The position numbers and the translations under genes were made by a program. A stretch of 23,598 nucleotides of DNA from a virus (lineage: Duplodnaviria; Heunggongvirae; Uroviricota; Caudoviricetes). The DNA is taken from IMG/VR virus record IMGVR_UViG_3300023312_000045. One strand, 5' to 3'. Shown piece by piece: positions 502 through 23,598 of this stretch (position 1 is the stretch's first letter; each line of letters starts with the position of its first letter). Below the pieces are notes generated by a model that was given only the letters and a program-made list of their open reading frames with translations, ran no database searches and was not told the DNA's origin.

Positions 502-516
502 TTACCACAACGGTAA
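502..516. promoter_or_regulatory. TTACC-N5-GGTAA inverted-repeat site E, upstream of terS, embedded in tandem direct repeat ACTATTACCAC
   Basis: tTTACCacaacGGTAA read at 502-516; a second degenerate copy TTACCacggtGGTTA follows at 520-534; terS ATG at 534. Confidence 0.5.
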
Positions 517-3102: not shown

Positions 3103-3185
3103 GAACTGGAAGCAATGAGTTATGCCTTCCGTGGCTGTACGGGTTTACAGCATGAAGTCATCGCAATGGCGTCCTGCTGTAAAAA

Positions 3186-3265: not shown

Positions 3266-3342
3266 TGGCGTGGCATGCAGGATTCGAACCTGCGACCAAC
3301 CGCTTAGAAGGCGGTTGCTCTGTCCAACTGAGCTAATGCCAC
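3266..3342 (-). tRNA. tRNA-Arg (anticodon UCU), phage-encoded argU-like
   Basis: Reverse complement folds as a canonical cloverleaf: acceptor GTGGCAT/ATGCCAC, D-stem GCTC/GAGC, anticodon stem ACCGC/GCGGT with loop CTTCTAA (anticodon TCT), T-stem GCAGG/CCTGC with TTCGAAT loop, discriminator G and encoded CCA. Confidence 0.88.
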
Positions 3343-3664: not shown

Positions 3665-3679
3665 TTACCTGAAAGGTAA
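3665..3679. promoter_or_regulatory. TTACC-N5-GGTAA site A, upstream of the portal operon; followed by TAATTA -10-like hexamer
   Basis: TTACCtgaaaGGTAA read at 3665-3679; identical 17-mer TTACCTGAAAGGTAATA also present at site B. Confidence 0.55.
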
Positions 3680-19827: not shown

Positions 19828-20388
19828 ATGAAGGCAATTATATTTTTTGTTTCAATATTGATGTCTGCATTTTCTTTTGCAGGGCAAAATGTTAAATGCG
19901 AACTTCAATACTTTGGAGATAGCGATAAATTTAAGGTAACTCAGTTTTCTTTTATGGGGATTCCATCTGATTCATACCTTTATACCTGTGCCGACTGTGG
20001 AGGCATCCAGATAAACGTGTTCCCATCTATTCAGACTGTTGCTTCCTACTCATTTGAAAACAACATTGATTTCGAAAGGAAAATCAATGCTGAATACAAC
20101 AGAAAAGACATAGCTAAACTTGAGATGGAAAACGTTACTCAAGGCGGGAGAATAAAATATTCAATCACCGATACTGGTTTGGCAGAGTTTTACCCAGAGG
20201 GCAAAAAGATAAGCTACCTCTACTTTTTAGCCAAGCAACAAAATGGTAAAGAACAAGTAGGTTATTCAGGATTTGTTACCTCTAACGGGGATAAGTCATG
20301 CTCAATTATTGCGACATATCCAGGAAAAGAAATTTCTTTTCTGGGAAGTAAATCTTTAAGCTACTTTATGAATCATATATCAATGTAG
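19828..20388 (+). CDS. Secreted/periplasmic hypothetical protein with Sec-type signal peptide (moron)
   Basis: N-terminus MKAIIFFVSILMSAFSFAGQ has n-h-c signal peptide organisation; coding DNA looks AT-rich relative to flanking virion genes; followed by a terminator. Confidence 0.6.
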   Translation: MKAIIFFVSILMSAFSFAGQNVKCELQYFGDSDKFKVTQFSFMGIPSDSYLYTCADCGGIQINVFPSIQTVASYSFENNIDFERKINAEYNRKDIAKLEMENVTQGGRIKYSITDTGLAEFYPEGKKISYLYFLAKQQNGKEQVGYSGFVTSNGDKSCSIIATYPGKEISFLGSKSLSYFMNHISM

Positions 20389-20683: not shown

Positions 20684-21016
20684 TCAGTTATTTACTTTCT
20701 TTGGCACTATTGCTGATAATGAGATCATAAAGCCAGTTAGAGCAGCAATAATTAATGGGAATATGAAAGCATCTGAAGTTCTCAGTGGATTCTTCATATC
20801 GAACAGAATAACAATGAAGAATGCGCTGGTTGCAAAAGTAGATGATGAATAAACCTCATTCATCTTGTATTGCAACTTATCCAAAGAAAAAGGAGGCGTA
20901 TCTTTGCAAACGGCATCCCATATCAGATGAACAGCAAGATAAGCAATGCACAGTATGAAATAAAACCTTGTCAATTGCTGTGCATCTCTGGGCGCAAGCC
21001 AAGATAAATCAGGCAT
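20684..21016 (-). CDS. Small integral membrane protein (110 aa, about 3 predicted TM helices); candidate immunity/partner protein
   Basis: Hydrophobic segments FYFILCIAYLAVHLIW, FATSAFFIVILF, AFIFPLIIAALTGFMISLSAIV; start lies 1 nt after the stop of the upstream 62-aa gene (translational coupling). Confidence 0.55.
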   Translation of the reverse strand: MPDLSWLAPRDAQQLTRFYFILCIAYLAVHLIWDAVCKDTPPFSLDKLQYKMNEVYSSSTFATSAFFIVILFDMKNPLRTSDAFIFPLIIAALTGFMISLSAIVPKKVNN

Positions 21017-21017
21017 T

Positions 21018-21206
21018 TTAGTTGGCTAACTTCTTTGCGGCATAGATAGCAGGGAGTGCAACAGCACCAGCCACAGCAAATGCATAGGCTATCCCAGCTG
21101 TAACAGTAAAAGCAGGAAGCAGGAAAGATAATCCGCCTGGTAGGGCAAAGCCTAAGCCCGCTCCGCCAATAATGGCCTTCAGCAATGTAATGATGTTGAT
21201 TTCCAT
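21018..21206 (-). CDS. 62-aa glycine-zipper hydrophobic membrane peptide (holin-like or toxin-like)
   Basis: Strong RBS GAGGGGG 4 nt before ATG; sequence MEINIITLLKAIIGGAGLGFALPGGLSFLLPAFTVTAGIAYAFAVAGAVALPAIYAAKKLAN is almost entirely Gly/Ala/hydrophobic with a KK-containing C-terminus. Confidence 0.55.
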   Translation of the reverse strand: MEINIITLLKAIIGGAGLGFALPGGLSFLLPAFTVTAGIAYAFAVAGAVALPAIYAAKKLAN

Positions 21207-21232: not shown

Positions 21233-21247
21233 TTACCTTTGGGGTAA
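21233..21247. promoter_or_regulatory. TTACC-N5-GGTAA site D, 27 bp upstream of the 62-aa gene start
   Basis: TTACCtttggGGTAA read at 21233-21247. Confidence 0.5.
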
Positions 21248-21318: not shown

Positions 21319-21975
21319 TCAGAAGAACCCTGCCTTGTCGTTGATGTACTCCGCGTGGGTCTGGATATCACGCAGGCATTTGCTCACACCGACGATGTAG
21401 CAGAACATGGTGGTCAGTTCCGCCGCCGCGCCCGATACATCGTGCCCGTCTTCCTGTAACTGGTTCAGCAGATTCATCAGCAGTGAGTTCTCCGTCAGGC
21501 CGAGAACACCAGACGGCGAATGAATCAGGCTGCGGTAGCCGGGCTTCAGTGGGGCGCTGTATTCTTTTTTGTCTTCCAGCTTGATCGCCTCCATTATGGC
21601 GGGCATGAAGCCTGACAAGACCTTCTCCACTTTTGTTTCTTGTTGTCTTAAACGTTTCTCGCATTCAATGAAGTAGCGTCGCACCTGGCGACCTTTTTCG
21701 TTACGCTCGACCATCGCCAGCTCTTTGGCTGTATCAAGGGTGAGGTGGTACTCTTTGCGGTTGTGGCCGCCTCTACCAGATGTTTGCTTTCCCAAATTGG
21801 AAAGCAAAATATAGTCTTGATTTTCAATGAATTCGTATTCTGATATGCGATTTGTAATCCATGCTGCAAACACCTTTTTAACACCTAAAAAAGCGTGCAG
21901 ATCGCGGGCATTACAAAGTAGGGCTGTTTCGTTAGATATAGTGCCGTTGAATACGGGGATGAGTTGAGCGTTCAT
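21319..21975 (-). CDS. Phage antirepressor, AntA-type N-terminal domain plus KilAC/ANT-like C-terminal domain
   Basis: N-terminal region ([29 protein letters not shown]...[33 protein letters not shown]) matches the AntA antirepressor domain as recalled; C-terminal 70 aa are paralogous to the 90-aa protein at 22293..22565. Confidence 0.75.
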
Positions 21976-22004
21976 GATGGCGTCTCCACTTAGCGAATTA
22001 CATC

Positions 22005-22052
22005 ACCACCGCTGAGACCAATCAGATGGTGGTGAACTGAACGGAGTTGGTC
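22005..22052 (-). other. Pseudoknot-capable structured element in the antirepressor leader
   Basis: Interleaved complementary hexamers: ACCACC (22005-22010) with GGTGGT (22028-22033), and GACCAA (22016-22021) with TTGGTC (22047-22052). Confidence 0.3.
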
Positions 22053-22133
22053 TTACCGGCCTAAGTGGTACCGGCGTCCTTTCGGACCCCCATTCAGCCC
22101 ACCATAATTCTGGCATGACTGTGCTATACGCAT

Positions 22134-22156
22134 AAAAAAACCACGTCTGGCGTGGT
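22134..22156 (-). terminator. Rho-independent terminator between the two antirepressor-family genes
   Basis: Minus-strand ACCACG-CCAGA-CGUGGU followed by UUUUUUU. Confidence 0.7.
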
Positions 22157-22167
22157 ATGCGCCACTT

Positions 22168-22220
22168 AGTAATCCGGGAGACCAATCCCGGCACTGGATT
22201 TTGCCAGTGCCCGATTACTA
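22168..22220 (-). other. Structured RNA element (two hairpins enclosed by a 7-bp outer stem) upstream of the terminator; candidate 3'UTR-derived or regulatory RNA
   Basis: AGTAATC...GATTACT outer stem enclosing CCGGGA-GACCAA-TCCCGG and CACTGG-ATTTTG-CCAGTG hairpins, read directly. Confidence 0.3.
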
Positions 22221-22246
22221 TGGCACAAGAGGAGTTCGATGTAAAT

Positions 22247-22261
22247 TTACCGCAAAGGTAA
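22247..22261. promoter_or_regulatory. TTACC-N5-GGTAA site C, downstream of the 90-aa gene
   Basis: TTACCgcaaaGGTAA read at 22247-22261. Confidence 0.5.
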
Positions 22262-22292: not shown

Positions 22293-22565
22293 TTATCTGG
22301 TTTGCTTTCGTAATTGTTCGGCACAATAGTCGAGATGTGTTTGCAGATCCTGCATAGACATCTGTGAGCTGGTGACGTAGTTAATCAGTGCAGTCAGTTC
22401 GGCAAGTGGGCCATCGACATTAAATCCATCCTTATCGAGATCCCGGAGTAATTTCATCAAGTGCGATCCCTCCACCAGTGACCTGACGCCTCCCGGCGTG
22501 TGAATCCTTTCGGTAAATCCGTCTTCCAGTGGATAGTGATACTGCTGCATCTTAATCTTCTCCAT
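22293..22565 (-). CDS. Small antirepressor-family protein (stand-alone KilAC/ANT-like domain), LexA-controlled
   Basis: 90 aa; RSLVEGSHLMKLLRDLDKDGFNVDGPLAELTALINYV aligns with [47 protein letters not shown] of the 218-aa antirepressor; a LexA box lies 5 bp upstream of the start. Confidence 0.7.
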   Translation of the reverse strand: MEKIKMQQYHYPLEDGFTERIHTPGGVRSLVEGSHLMKLLRDLDKDGFNVDGPLAELTALINYVTSSQMSMQDLQTHLDYCAEQLRKQTR

Positions 22566-22570
22566 GCAAT

Positions 22571-22590
22571 AACTGTATATTTATACAGTA
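22571..22590. promoter_or_regulatory. LexA (SOS) box AACTGTATATTTATACAGTA
   Basis: CTGT-N8-ACAG with AT-rich spacer, 18 of 20 matches to the TACTGTATATATATACAGTA consensus; in the divergent region between the 90-aa gene and the tailspike gene. Confidence 0.75.
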
Positions 22591-22620
22591 GCAAATAATT
22601 TGTTTGCTATCCAGCACGTT

Positions 22621-22648
22621 TTGCAAATTACCTGAAAGGTAATATCTA
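22621..22648 (+). promoter_or_regulatory. Candidate sigma70 promoter for tailspike: -35 TTGCAA, 16-bp spacer, -10 TATCTA, with TTACC-N5-GGTAA site B (22628-22642) inside the spacer
   Basis: Hexamers and spacing read directly; operator-in-spacer geometry is typical of repressible promoters. Confidence 0.45.
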
Positions 22649-22677
22649 TTCATATTTACAGTCTTTCTATCCATATG

Positions 22678-22692
22678 TGGTTTTTCAGGTAA
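22678..22692. promoter_or_regulatory. Degenerate second site TGGTT-N5-GGTAA within shared CATATGTGGTT...GGTAATA element (tailspike leader)
   Basis: catatgTGGTTtttcaGGTAAtag at 22672-22695; parallels 3721-3743. Confidence 0.4.
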
Positions 22693-22746
22693 TAGAATAA
22701 CCAGATATGCGGCGCAACGGGTGCTGCGACTATCTGGAGATTTAAC

Positions 22747-23598
22747 ATGACGGTCTCAACCGAAGTTGACCACAACGAATACACAGGTAACGGCGTTACG
22801 ACATCGTTTCCGTATACTTTTCGAATTTTCAGAAAATCAGACCTGGTTGTTCAGGTGTCTGACCTGAACGGAAACGTAACAGAATTGGTTCTGGATACCG
22901 GTTATACGGTAACTGGGGCGGGCACTTATAGTGGCGGTTCTGTGGTTCTTCCGTCTCCGCTTGCTACTGGATGGCGAATTACGATAGATCGTGTGCTTGA
23001 TGTAGTGCAGGAGACAGACCTTCGCAATCAGGGAAAATTTTTCCCAGAAGTGCATGAAGATGCCTTTGACTACCTGACGATGCTGATCCAGCAATGTTTT
23101 GGGTGGTTCAGACGTGCATTGATGAAACCATCTTTGCTTGCAAAATATTACGATGCAAAGCAAAACAAAATTTCTAACCTTGCAGATCCATCATTTGAGC
23201 AGGACGCTGTAAATAATCGCTCAATGCGTAATTATGTCGATGCTGCAATCGCCGGGGTTGTTGGTGGTTTTGGTTGGTTTATTCAGTATGGTTCTGGGGC
23301 TGTGTACCGAACGTTCCAGGATAAAATGCGTGATGCTATTAGCCCCAAAGATTTTGGAGCTGTTGGTGATGGTATAAATGACGATTCCACTGCAATAAGC
23401 GCGTGCCTTGAAGCCTCATCTCCAGGTTATAAAATTGACGGATTAGGGCTTACTTTTAAAGTATCAACTCTTCCGGATGTCAGTCGATTTAAAAATGCTC
23501 GTTTTTTATTTGAGAGAATACCGGGCCAGCCTCTTTTTTATGCTTCTGAAGATTTTATCCAGGGAGAGTTATTTAAAATTACAGATACACCGTGGTAC
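22747..23598 (+). CDS. Tailspike/tail fibre protein, 5' partial (runs off window end): T7 gp17-like N-terminal adaptor domain followed by the start of a pectate-lyase-type beta-helix
   Basis: Open frame from ATG 22747 to the window end (284 codons, translated by hand; absent from the ORF track because it has no stop). N-terminus GNGVTTSFPYTFRIFRKSDLVVQV parallels T7 gp17 DGSNRDFNIPFEYLARKFVVV as recalled; FGAVGDGINDDSTAI is the hallmark start of beta-helix depolymerase domains. Confidence 0.75.
   Translation, partial: MTVSTEVDHNEYTGNGVTTSFPYTFRIFRKSDLVVQVSDLNGNVTELVLDTGYTVTGAGTYSGGSVVLPSPLATGWRITIDRVLDVVQETDLRNQGKFFPEVHEDAFDYLTMLIQQCFGWFRRALMKPSLLAKYYDAKQNKISNLADPSFEQDAVNNRSMRNYVDAAIAGVVGGFGWFIQYGSGAVYRTFQDKMRDAISPKDFGAVGDGINDDSTAISACLEASSPGYKIDGLGLTFKVSTLPDVSRFKNARFLFERIPGQPLFYASEDFIQGELFKITDTPWY

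What the first reader, a model, noticed from the sequence alone, without database searches (positions are those of the whole stretch)
22293..22590. SOS box directly upstream of a stand-alone antirepressor-domain gene
A near-consensus LexA box (AACTGTATATTTATACAGTA, CTGT-N8-ACAG) sits 5 bp upstream of the start codon of a 90-aa protein whose sequence is paralogous to the C-terminal domain of the adjacent AntA-type antirepressor. LexA-controlled small antirepressors are an established route of prophage induction in some enterobacterial prophages (for example 186 Tum and the Gifsy/Fels-2 antirepressors). This suggests the prophage couples induction to the SOS response through a trans-acting antirepressor rather than, or in addition to, RecA-mediated repressor cleavage. 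The box also lies in the divergent region shared with the tailspike promoter.
Basis: partly seen in the sequence, partly recalled or inferred. Interest (0 to 1): 0.65.

Follow-up and report, generated by a model that had tools for sequence, protein, structure and literature searches.

The report
LexA-controlled small phage antirepressor Ant
The SOS box and the small gene are real. Together they are the E. coli copy of an already characterised switch from Salmonella phage SPC32H, in which DNA damage removes LexA, a small protein (Ant) is made, and Ant disables the prophage repressor; the finding is correct but not new.

Summary
A LexA box (TACTGTATAAATATACAGTT, minus strand, 22571-22590; 18/20 to consensus; none expected by chance) lies upstream of a small minus-strand gene. 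That gene's product is 42% identical to the C-terminal domain of the neighbouring AntA-type protein.

One correction: the real start is almost certainly the second ATG (22550; 85 aa). It follows a GGAG, and the first ATG is out of frame in most relatives.

The protein is 88% identical to Ant of Salmonella phage SPC32H (PDB 5D50, E=4e-47). The box sits at the orthologous position. SPC32H and its constitutively lytic sibling SPC32N differ at two bases genome-wide, and one is in this box.

The CTGT/ACAG half-sites are conserved in about 90 related loci from six genera. A conserved promoter (TGGATA-17-TACTGT) uses the left end of the box as its -10, as in phage 186 p95. Close relatives carry a non-cleavable, SPC32H-type Rep.

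It is not homologous to Tum.

The less ordinary material is downstream: a P1-immI-like cassette (putative Rep operator, isrK, C4 antisense RNA) controlling the second antirepressor.

The parts
22571..22590 (-). LexA box TACTGTATAAATATACAGTT (18/20 to consensus)
   Evidence: unique in the window, 0 in shuffles. Orthologous to the SPC32H box that is mutated in SPC32N. Half-sites conserved across related loci.
22608..22613 (-). Candidate -35 (TGGATA) of the ant promoter
   Evidence: Best-scoring and positionally conserved -35/-10 pair in five divergent homologous regions; lies in the invariant block GCTGGATA. No TSS data.
22585..22590 (-). Candidate -10 (TACTGT) of the ant promoter, which is the left end of the LexA box
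   Evidence: Same layout as the annotated p95 promoter and LexA site of phage 186.
22560..22563 (-). Shine-Dalgarno GGAG for ant
   Evidence: Read from the sequence; invariant in alignment A1.
22293..22550 (-). ant: 85-aa small antirepressor (SPC32H Ant orthologue), stop codon included
   Evidence: phrog_450.
22628..22642 (.). Palindrome TTACCTGAAAGGTAA, a putative Rep operator between the ant and tailspike promoters
   Evidence: Motif strongly enriched. It clusters around rep in SPC32H and phiv142-3. Conserved at this position. The binding protein is inferred.
22670..22698 (+). Candidate tailspike promoter (TCCATA-17-TAGAAT)
   Evidence: Positionally conserved best candidate in 7 homologous regions.
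22247..22261 (.). Palindrome TTACCGCAAAGGTAA, a putative Rep operator abutting the -35 of the isrK promoter
   Evidence: conserved in 5 divergent loci.
22217..22245 (-). Candidate isrK promoter (TTTACA-17-CATAGT, with TG upstream of the -10)
   Evidence: The -10 block is invariant. The predicted TSS coincides with the 5' end of the isrK model at 22210.
22134..22210 (-). isrK-family sRNA with intrinsic terminator; carries sites a1 (22179-22185) and b1 (22162-22169)
   Evidence: Rfam RF01394, 67.7 bits against gathering score 50; terminator; a/b sites.
22025..22109 (-). C4 antisense RNA; b' CCACUUAG at 22061-22068, a' AGACCAA at 22047-22053
   Evidence: Rfam RF01695, 61.2 bits against gathering score 45; complementarity.
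21984..22021 (-). Leader of the second antirepressor gene with C4 target sites a2 (22015-22021) and b2 (21986-21993); b2 overlaps the SD GGAG (21984-21987)
   Evidence: three-way covariation.
21319..21975 (-). Second antirepressor, 218 aa: AntA N-terminal domain plus Ant-like C-terminal domain (about 21346-21594)
   Evidence: 5D50_E, E=4.6e-14; phrog_377. Overexpression of the positional homologue in phage ZX5 reduces lysogeny (PMC9782041).

Best explanation
This is the SOS-sensing arm of the lysis-lysogeny switch of a Uetakevirus (phiV10/epsilon15-like) prophage.

In the lysogen, host LexA binds the box at 22571-22590. The left end of that box doubles as the -10 of the ant promoter (TGGATA-17-TACTGT), so ant is silent. 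DNA damage makes LexA cleave itself. RNA polymerase then transcribes ant (22550-22293), and the 85-aa Ant protein binds the phage repressor Rep and takes it off its operators, which starts lytic growth.

In SPC32H, Rep is a non-cleavable two-HTH protein that works as a tetramer, and an Ant tetramer splits it into dimers.

Shown here: the box, the gene, the orthology, the conservation, and the SPC32H/SPC32N difference in the box. Taken from the literature on SPC32H: LexA repression, Ant-Rep binding and induction. Inferred for this prophage: that the same steps operate. The exact promoter is also inferred.
For: - Ant orthology: PDB 5D50_E, E=4.4e-47, 88% identical.
- Same synteny as SPC32H: ant lies divergent from the tailspike gene, after the injection-protein genes.
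- The box aligns with the SPC32H box. SPC32N carries C->A in the ACAG half-site, and this is one of only two differences between the genomes.
- The box is retained in all intact loci among 91 examined. Half-sites are invariant while spacer and flanks vary, including in Citrobacter, Erwinia, Pseudocitrobacter and Scandinavium.
- A conserved promoter candidate overlaps the box, with the same layout as phage 186 p95/LexA.
- Rep of the closest relatives matches SPC32H Rep (5D50_A, E=3.5e-42) and has no peptidase domain.
- Literature read here: LexA cleavage leads to Ant, which inhibits the repressor (PMC7380047); the Ant tetramer breaks the Rep tetramer (PMC9638917).
Against: - No experiment exists for this prophage.
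- rep is not in the window, so the cognate pair was only seen in relatives.
- Rep is only 42-43% identical between the E. coli and Salmonella phages while Ant is 84-88% identical, so Ant-Rep binding in the E. coli lineage is assumed, not shown.
- The promoter hexamers are weak matches. The standard scan did not call them, and the TSS is unknown.
- The two primary SPC32H papers could not be read here. Details of them rest on my recollection of the abstracts and on citing papers.
Confidence: 0.85

Rival explanations
1. In this lineage the working antirepressor is the large AntA-type protein. The small paralogue mainly modulates it, for example by forming mixed oligomers through the shared Ant-like domain, either as a dominant-negative or as a co-factor.
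For: The two proteins share the Ant fold region and SPC32H Ant oligomerises (PMC9638917). Overexpression of the large protein's positional homologue alone reduces lysogeny in phage ZX5 (PMC9782041). About 77 of 89 loci keep both genes.
Against: In SPC32H-type phages the small Ant works alone, with no large paralogue. Ant is 88% conserved and keeps its LexA box in both architectures, which argues for the same primary role.
Confidence: 0.08
2. Rep of this prophage is inactivated mainly by RecA-stimulated self-cleavage, and the LexA-controlled Ant is an accessory.
For: This is the commonest induction route in lambdoid phages. rep is not in the window, so it cannot be inspected directly.
Against: The Rep of the nearest relatives (including an E. 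coli prophage 99.6% identical across the matched ~85% of the ant-region query) has only HTH domains, no S24 peptidase domain, and matches the non-cleavable SPC32H Rep over its full length.
Confidence: 0.04
3. The palindrome is a fortuitous or decayed LexA-like sequence with no regulatory role, and ant is controlled only by Rep or not expressed.
For: No direct binding data for this sequence. The putative Rep operator 37 bp upstream could be the real controller.
Against: 18/20 match to consensus with zero chance expectation. Half-sites invariant across genera while neighbouring bases drift. A single natural change in the orthologous half-site is one of only two differences between SPC32H and SPC32N.
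Confidence: 0.03

Closest known systems
Ant-Rep-LexA antirepression system of Salmonella phage SPC32H (Kim & Ryu 2013, J Virol 87:11775; Kim et al. 2016, PNAS 113:E2480; PDB 5D50/5D4Z)
   Same: Orthologous protein (88% identical), same length and same start context. Same genomic position, divergent from the tailspike gene. Orthologous LexA box. Same putative operator palindrome upstream. Homologous non-cleavable Rep in close relatives.
   Different: Host is E. coli (a K1-type endosialidase tailspike prophage at guaA in the closest genome). Rep is only about 43% identical. ant is followed by an extra isrK-C4-second-antirepressor cassette that SPC32H lacks.
Phage 186 Tum and its p95 promoter
   Same: LexA-repressed small antirepressor that inactivates the immunity repressor by binding. 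The promoter's -10 is the TACTGT of the LexA box in both.
   Different: No detectable sequence similarity (E=0.06). Different phage type (P2-like myovirus) and different repressor family.
P1/P7 immI (c4 antisense RNA controlling icd-ant); applies to the neighbouring gene
   Same: Rfam C4 hit. C4 loop sequences are complementary to target sites upstream (in isrK) and downstream (over the SD of the antirepressor gene). Specificity variants covary, like the P1/P7 heteroimmunity types. A putative repressor operator lies at the promoter.
   Different: Here the cassette sits directly downstream of a LexA-controlled paralogue, and the regulated protein carries an SPC32H-Ant-like C-terminal domain. 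No icd-like ORF was examined.
Gifsy-1 IsrK-orf45-AnrP (Hershko-Shalev et al. 2016, PMC4825925)
   Same: isrK-family sRNA with a leaky terminator upstream of an antirepressor-like gene whose translation is blocked until IsrK acts.
   Different: Different phage and different downstream protein. Here the region between isrK and the gene is scored as a C4 RNA by Rfam.
P22 immI antirepressor (Ant, controlled by Mnt/Arc/sar)
   Same: From general knowledge: an antirepressor locus placed between the injection-protein genes and the tailspike gene of a short-tailed temperate phage.
   Different: P22 ant is not LexA-controlled and P22 remains SOS-inducible without it (PMC7380047). The protein is unrelated in size.

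Membership tests
SPC32H-type small antirepressor Ant (phrog_450; PDB 5D50 chain E) | Full-length sequence homology to the solved Ant protein (about 86 aa) | tested here: met
   E=4.4e-47 over residues 7-89 of the ORF against 3-85 of the 86-residue chain; 88% identity by tblastn to SPC32H ant; phrog_450 E=9e-48.
SPC32H-type small antirepressor Ant (phrog_450; PDB 5D50 chain E) | LexA box overlapping the ant promoter at the orthologous position | tested here: met
   Alignment A1; conserved in related loci; conserved -10 candidate inside the box. Binding itself was not tested.
SPC32H-type small antirepressor Ant (phrog_450; PDB 5D50 chain E) | Synteny: divergent from the tailspike gene, downstream of the injection/structural module of a Uetakevirus | tested here: met
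SPC32H-type small antirepressor Ant (phrog_450; PDB 5D50 chain E) | Cognate non-cleavable Rep (HTH protein without a peptidase domain, homologous to 5D50 chain A) | tested here: inconclusive
   rep lies outside the window. In phiv142-3 (98% identical locus) and E. coli 20Y000092 (99.6% identical across the matched ~85% of the ant-region query), Rep is 42-43% identical to SPC32H Rep, matches 5D50_A at E=3.5e-42, and has HTH domains only.
SPC32H-type small antirepressor Ant (phrog_450; PDB 5D50 chain E) | Ant binds Rep and induces the prophage; LexA represses ant | not testable with these tools
   Needs EMSA, pull-down and induction assays.
Phage 186 Tum family | Sequence homology to Tum | tested here: not met
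   BLASTP 16.5 bits, E=0.061 for the single comparison.
Phage 186 Tum family | LexA site overlapping the -10 of the antirepressor promoter (this bears on 'works like', not on membership) | tested here: met
   186: TTCACA-18-TACTGT within the annotated LexA site. Window: TGGATA-17-TACTGT.
AntA/AntB antirepressors (Pfam PF08346) | AntA domain present | tested here: not met
   No AntA hit in the small protein. The neighbouring 218-aa protein has it (E=4e-26, residues 22-92).
Gifsy/Fels-2 LexA-controlled antirepressors (GfoA, GfhA; Lemire et al. 2011) | Sequence homology to those proteins | not tested
   Reference sequences were not retrieved. As I recall it, the Kim & Ryu abstract states that Ant is structurally distinct from the earlier sipho- and myovirus antirepressors.
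P1/P7 immI-type c4-controlled antirepressor cassette (neighbouring gene 21319-22261) | C4 antisense RNA upstream of the antirepressor gene | tested here: met
   RF01695, 61.2 bits against gathering score 45.
P1/P7 immI-type c4-controlled antirepressor cassette (neighbouring gene 21319-22261) | C4 loop sequences complementary to target sites that cover the ribosome-binding site, with covarying specificity | tested here: met
   AGACCAA/UUGGUCU and CCACUUAG/CUAAGUGG; b2 overlaps the SD. 29 of 32 loci matched by a strict pattern show exact three-way agreement, in 6 specificity combinations, one of which includes a 1-nt insertion at all three sites.

The most novel reading that the evidence does not exclude
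The locus is a two-tier antirepressor circuit, not a single SOS switch.

Tier 1 is LexA-controlled ant. Tier 2 is a paralogous antirepressor (a variable N-domain plus an Ant-like C-domain) held off in two ways: by a putative Rep operator on the isrK promoter, and by C4 RNA covering its ribosome-binding site.

No terminator separates ant from isrK. SOS-driven ant transcripts would therefore end in the isrK sequence, which carries decoy copies of both C4 target sites. Ant inactivation of Rep would in turn open the isrK promoter.

Together these would convert a transient SOS pulse into a self-reinforcing commitment to lysis, with interchangeable C4 specificity types setting cross-talk between co-resident prophages.
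Probability: 0.3. Interest if true: 0.5.

Novelty: already known. Interest (0 to 1): 0.2.

Why it matters
For annotation: this 85-aa gene is labelled 'hypothetical protein' in RefSeq, in GenBank phage records and in PHROGs (phrog_450, unknown function), and it has no Pfam family. Even so, it is very likely the SOS trigger of a common group of E. coli prophages; related sequence was found in about 990 of 5,426 complete genomes for the wider region. That group includes K1-capsule-specific and O157-specific phages. A 2022 study of a sister phage (ZX5) looked only at the large antirepressor and overlooked this gene.

Biologically it adds nothing new to the principle of LexA-controlled antirepression. 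The tandem arrangement with an sRNA-gated paralogue is the part that may repay experiments.

Tried and rejected
- Primary papers. Kim & Ryu 2013 and Kim et al. 2016 are not held in the library, whether asked for by DOI or by PMC id. I relied on citing papers, on the GenBank records and on my recollection of the abstracts.
- Promoter scan. The standard scan found no ant or tailspike promoter in 22566-22747. A home-made weight-matrix scan on five to seven divergent homologous regions gave positionally conserved candidates. The matrices are rough values of my own, so the hexamers are hypotheses.
- Other CTGT-N8-ACAG matches at 3135 and 7677: rejected as LexA boxes, because the spacers are G+C-rich and neither matches the 20-mer consensus within 3 mismatches.
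- Spurious protein hits: the Pfam DUF724 hit for Ant (17 bits against a cutoff of 38) and the PDB 7oyc hit for the large protein.
- Tum homology: rejected.
- The genome-contig scan with the single protein returned only 5 loci. The viral-contig scan returned 80 loci that are nearly all at least 99% identical in Ant, so the informative divergence comes from about 8 loci.
- My strict regular expression for the isrK a1/b1 sites matched only 32 of about 77 isrK-bearing loci; the rest were not analysed.
- Structure prediction and fold search were not run. Sequence matches to the solved Ant and Rep chains were already decisive.

Full report
**1. What is in the sequence**

The window is the structural half of a Uetakevirus (phiV10/epsilon15-like) prophage. 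The closest phage is phiv142-3 (98.4% identity over the locus). The closest genome is E. coli 20Y000092, whose prophage lies next to guaA and carries an endosialidase tailspike.

On the minus strand, TACTGTATAAATATACAGTT occupies 22590-22571. It differs from the LexA consensus TACTGTATATATATACAGTA at two positions. It is the only match in the window at up to 3 mismatches, with none in 100 shuffles. The ORF 22565-22293 (90 aa) follows it.

The ORF is 42% identical (E=2e-17) to residues 128-210 of the adjacent 218-aa protein (21975-21319). Only the N-terminus of that protein is an AntA domain.

**2. Correction of the start codon**

GGAG lies at 22563-22560, 9 nt before a second ATG at 22550. Homologues are annotated at 85-86 aa, and the crystallised SPC32H protein has 86 residues.

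In most of the 91 related loci the sequence is GGAGAAGATAAGATG, one T shorter than in the window. There the upstream ATG is out of frame. The protein is therefore 85 aa (22550-22293), and the box ends 20 bp, not 5 bp, before the start codon.

**3. Identity of the small protein**

The protein matches PDB 5D50 chain E, 'Anti-repressor protein', at E=4.4e-47. It is 88% identical to the annotated ant of Salmonella phages SPC32H and SPC32N.

About 136 homologues were found, nearly all 85-86 aa, in Escherichia, Salmonella, Citrobacter, Klebsiella and other enterobacteria. Pfam has no family for it, and PHROGs lists it as phrog_450 with unknown function.

According to papers I could read:
- SPC32H belongs to the group in which LexA self-cleavage allows synthesis of an antirepressor that inhibits the repressor by protein-protein contact (PMC7380047).

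The primary papers (Kim & Ryu 2013; Kim et al. 2016) were not available.

**4. The LexA box is orthologous and constrained**

In an alignment of the ant-tailspike intergenic regions, the window's box aligns with TACTGTATGTTTATACAGTG of SPC32H. SPC32N has TACTGTATGTTTATAAAGTG at the same place.

I compared the two complete genomes. They differ at exactly two positions, 19960 (this half-site) and 20147 (inside tsp). As I recall the abstract, this agrees with the published account that a single change in the LexA site makes Ant constitutive.

Among 91 loci, every intact one keeps CTGT-N8-ACAG. The spacer varies (ATAAATAT, ATAAACAT, ATATTTAT, GTATTTAT, ATGTTTAT, ACATTTAT, ACATAAAT), and so do the flanks. 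This holds in Citrobacter, Erwinia dacicola, Pseudocitrobacter and Scandinavium, where Ant is 71-88% identical. The exceptions are two contig-end truncations and one contig (L014) in which unrelated sequence replaces the left half.

**5. Promoters**

The standard scan called nothing near the box. A rough weight-matrix scan on five divergent homologous regions gave one candidate at the same place in all five. It is -35 TGGATA (22613-22608), a 17-nt spacer, and -10 TACTGT (22590-22585), which is the left end of the LexA box. This explains the invariant block GCTGGATA in the alignment.

Phage 186 has the same design. Its annotated p95 is TTCACA-18-TACTGT, with the -10 forming the first six bases of the LexA site TACTGTATGTTTATACAGTA upstream of tum.

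For the tailspike, a conserved candidate (TCCATA/TTCATA-17-TAGAAT, 22670-22698) lies at least 80 bp from the box. LexA is therefore unlikely to act on it directly.

**6. The repressor**

rep is outside the window. In phiv142-3 and in the E. coli 20Y000092 prophage, the repressor is a 194-aa protein that is 42-43% identical over its full length to SPC32H Rep. It matches 5D50 chain A at E=3.5e-42 and has HTH domains but no S24 peptidase domain. This favours antirepression as the induction route rather than RecA-stimulated cleavage.

Between the Salmonella and E. coli phages, Ant is far more conserved (84-88%) than Rep (about 43%). I cannot explain this asymmetry.

**7.

The small protein works like 186 Tum but is not related to it (E=0.06). 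It is not an AntA/AntB protein. I did not test the Gifsy antirepressors.

**8. What lies downstream (outside the finding, but it bears on 'stand-alone domain next to an AntA-type antirepressor')**

Between ant and the 218-aa gene, Rfam finds an isrK sRNA (22210-22134, 67.7 bits) ending in an intrinsic terminator, and a C4 antisense RNA (22109-22025, 61.2 bits).

C4's loop CCACUUAG and its single-stranded AGACCAA are exactly complementary to CUAAGUGG and UUGGUCU. Both of these target sequences occur twice: in isrK, and in the leader of the 218-aa gene, where CUAAGUGG overlaps the Shine-Dalgarno sequence.

Across loci the three copies change together: UC<->CG in site a; AAGUGG, AAAAGG, AGUAGG and ACAAAGG in site b. 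One locus has a 1-nt insertion at all three places. Of 32 loci caught by a strict pattern, 29 agree perfectly, in six combinations.

As far as I recall the P1/P7 literature, this is the logic of their immI region, where c4 RNA blocks translation of the antirepressor and target copies lie upstream and downstream. It also fits the Gifsy-1 data: isrK's terminator is leaky, anrP is untranslated, and IsrK supplied in trans activates it (PMC4825925).

About 77 of 89 loci have ant + isrK (mostly with C4) + a second protein with an Ant-like C-domain. Ten, including SPC32H, have ant only. The N-domain of the second protein varies (AntA in 8 loci; Bro-N in phiV10 and ZX5), but the Ant-like C-domain is constant. 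It matches 5D50_E at E=4.6e-14. Overexpressing the Bro-N version in phage ZX5 lowered lysogen counts a thousand-fold (PMC9782041).

**9. A phage-wide palindrome**

TTACC-N5-GGTAA occurs five times exactly and twice with one mismatch in the window, against 0.27 expected. Six of the seven sites lie in intergenic, promoter-proximal positions; the one-mismatch site at 20190 lies inside the 186-aa ORF 19828-20388 and is probably not an operator.

In SPC32H, three copies fill the rep/divergent-gene intergenic region and three lie just downstream of rep. In phiv142-3 the motif also flanks rep. I infer that it is the Rep (or Rep/Cro) operator.

One copy (22628-22642) lies between the ant and tailspike promoters and is conserved in SPC32H. 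Another (22247-22261) abuts the -35 of the isrK promoter, TTTACA-17-CATAGT, whose predicted start coincides with the 5' end of isrK.

**10. Mechanism and rivals**

Best explanation (0.85): LexA-repressed ant, orthologous to SPC32H, triggers induction by inactivating a non-cleavable Rep.

Rivals:
- The small protein mainly modulates the large paralogue (0.08).
- Rep cleavage dominates (0.04).
- The box is non-functional (0.03).

The most novel reading not excluded (0.3) is a two-tier circuit. SOS-driven ant transcripts run into isrK, since no terminator lies between 22293 and 22157, and so supply decoy sites for C4. Rep inactivation at the same time opens the isrK promoter. The second antirepressor would then latch the decision.

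**11. Verdict**

The system is already known from SPC32H, so the interest of the finding as stated is low. The sRNA-gated paralogue downstream is the part that merits follow-up.

Noticed in passing
window 22025-22210 (-), leader 21984-22021: isrK and C4 RNAs lie between ant and the AntA-type gene. C4 is complementary to two sites that are present both in isrK and over the ribosome-binding site of the downstream gene. All three copies covary across loci, giving at least 6 specificity combinations. This resembles P1/P7 immI.
   Followed up: yes
window 502-516, 520-534, 3665-3679, 21233-21247, 22247-22261, 22628-22642: The palindrome TTACC-N5-GGTAA is greatly over-represented and always promoter-proximal. 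In SPC32H and phiv142-3 it clusters around the rep gene, so it is probably the Rep operator. If so, Rep would directly control the terminase, head, tailspike/ant and isrK promoter regions.
   Followed up: partly
window 21319-21975 (-); L001 3012-3691: The second antirepressor keeps an Ant-like C-terminal domain across genera while its N-terminal domain is swapped (AntA here, Bro-N in phiV10/ZX5). In phiV10 the C-terminal domain is split by a frameshift into the annotated p23 and p22.
   Followed up: partly
SPC32H (L005) versus phiv142-3 (L006) and E. coli 20Y000092 (L094): Ant is 84-88% identical between the Salmonella and E. coli phages, but their Rep proteins are only 42-43% identical. The asymmetry is unexplained. 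It may mean that Ant contacts a conserved Rep surface, or that it acts across immunity types.
   Followed up: no
L014 (IMG/VR UViG_2563366870_000004), about 1900-2000: In one related contig, unrelated sequence replaces the left half of the LexA box and the promoter. This could be an insertion or a rearrangement that uncouples ant from LexA.
   Followed up: no
window 22550-22565: A one-base insertion (GATTAAG here, GATAAG in most relatives) brings an upstream ATG into frame and creates the apparent 90-aa ORF. Eight IMG/VR loci have a promoter-to-start upstream sequence identical to the window's, and several other variants also carry the extra T.
   Followed up: yes
window 3269-3342 (-): A tRNA gene (73 bits), annotated as tRNA-Arg in relatives, sits between the terminase and portal modules.
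   Followed up: no
window 22748-23598 (+) and beyond: The tailspike has an epsilon15/phiV10-type N-terminus. In the closest genomes it is annotated as an endosialidase, which suggests a K1-capsule-specific prophage integrated next to guaA.
   Followed up: partly
window 20684-21206 (-), 19828-20388 (+): A cluster of small genes of unknown function lies between the injection-protein gene and the antirepressor cassette: a 62-aa membrane-like protein, a 110-aa protein, and a 186-aa protein with a signal-peptide-like N-terminus. The content varies between relatives (YafO toxin genes in some), so this looks like a moron/accessory hotspot.
   Followed up: no
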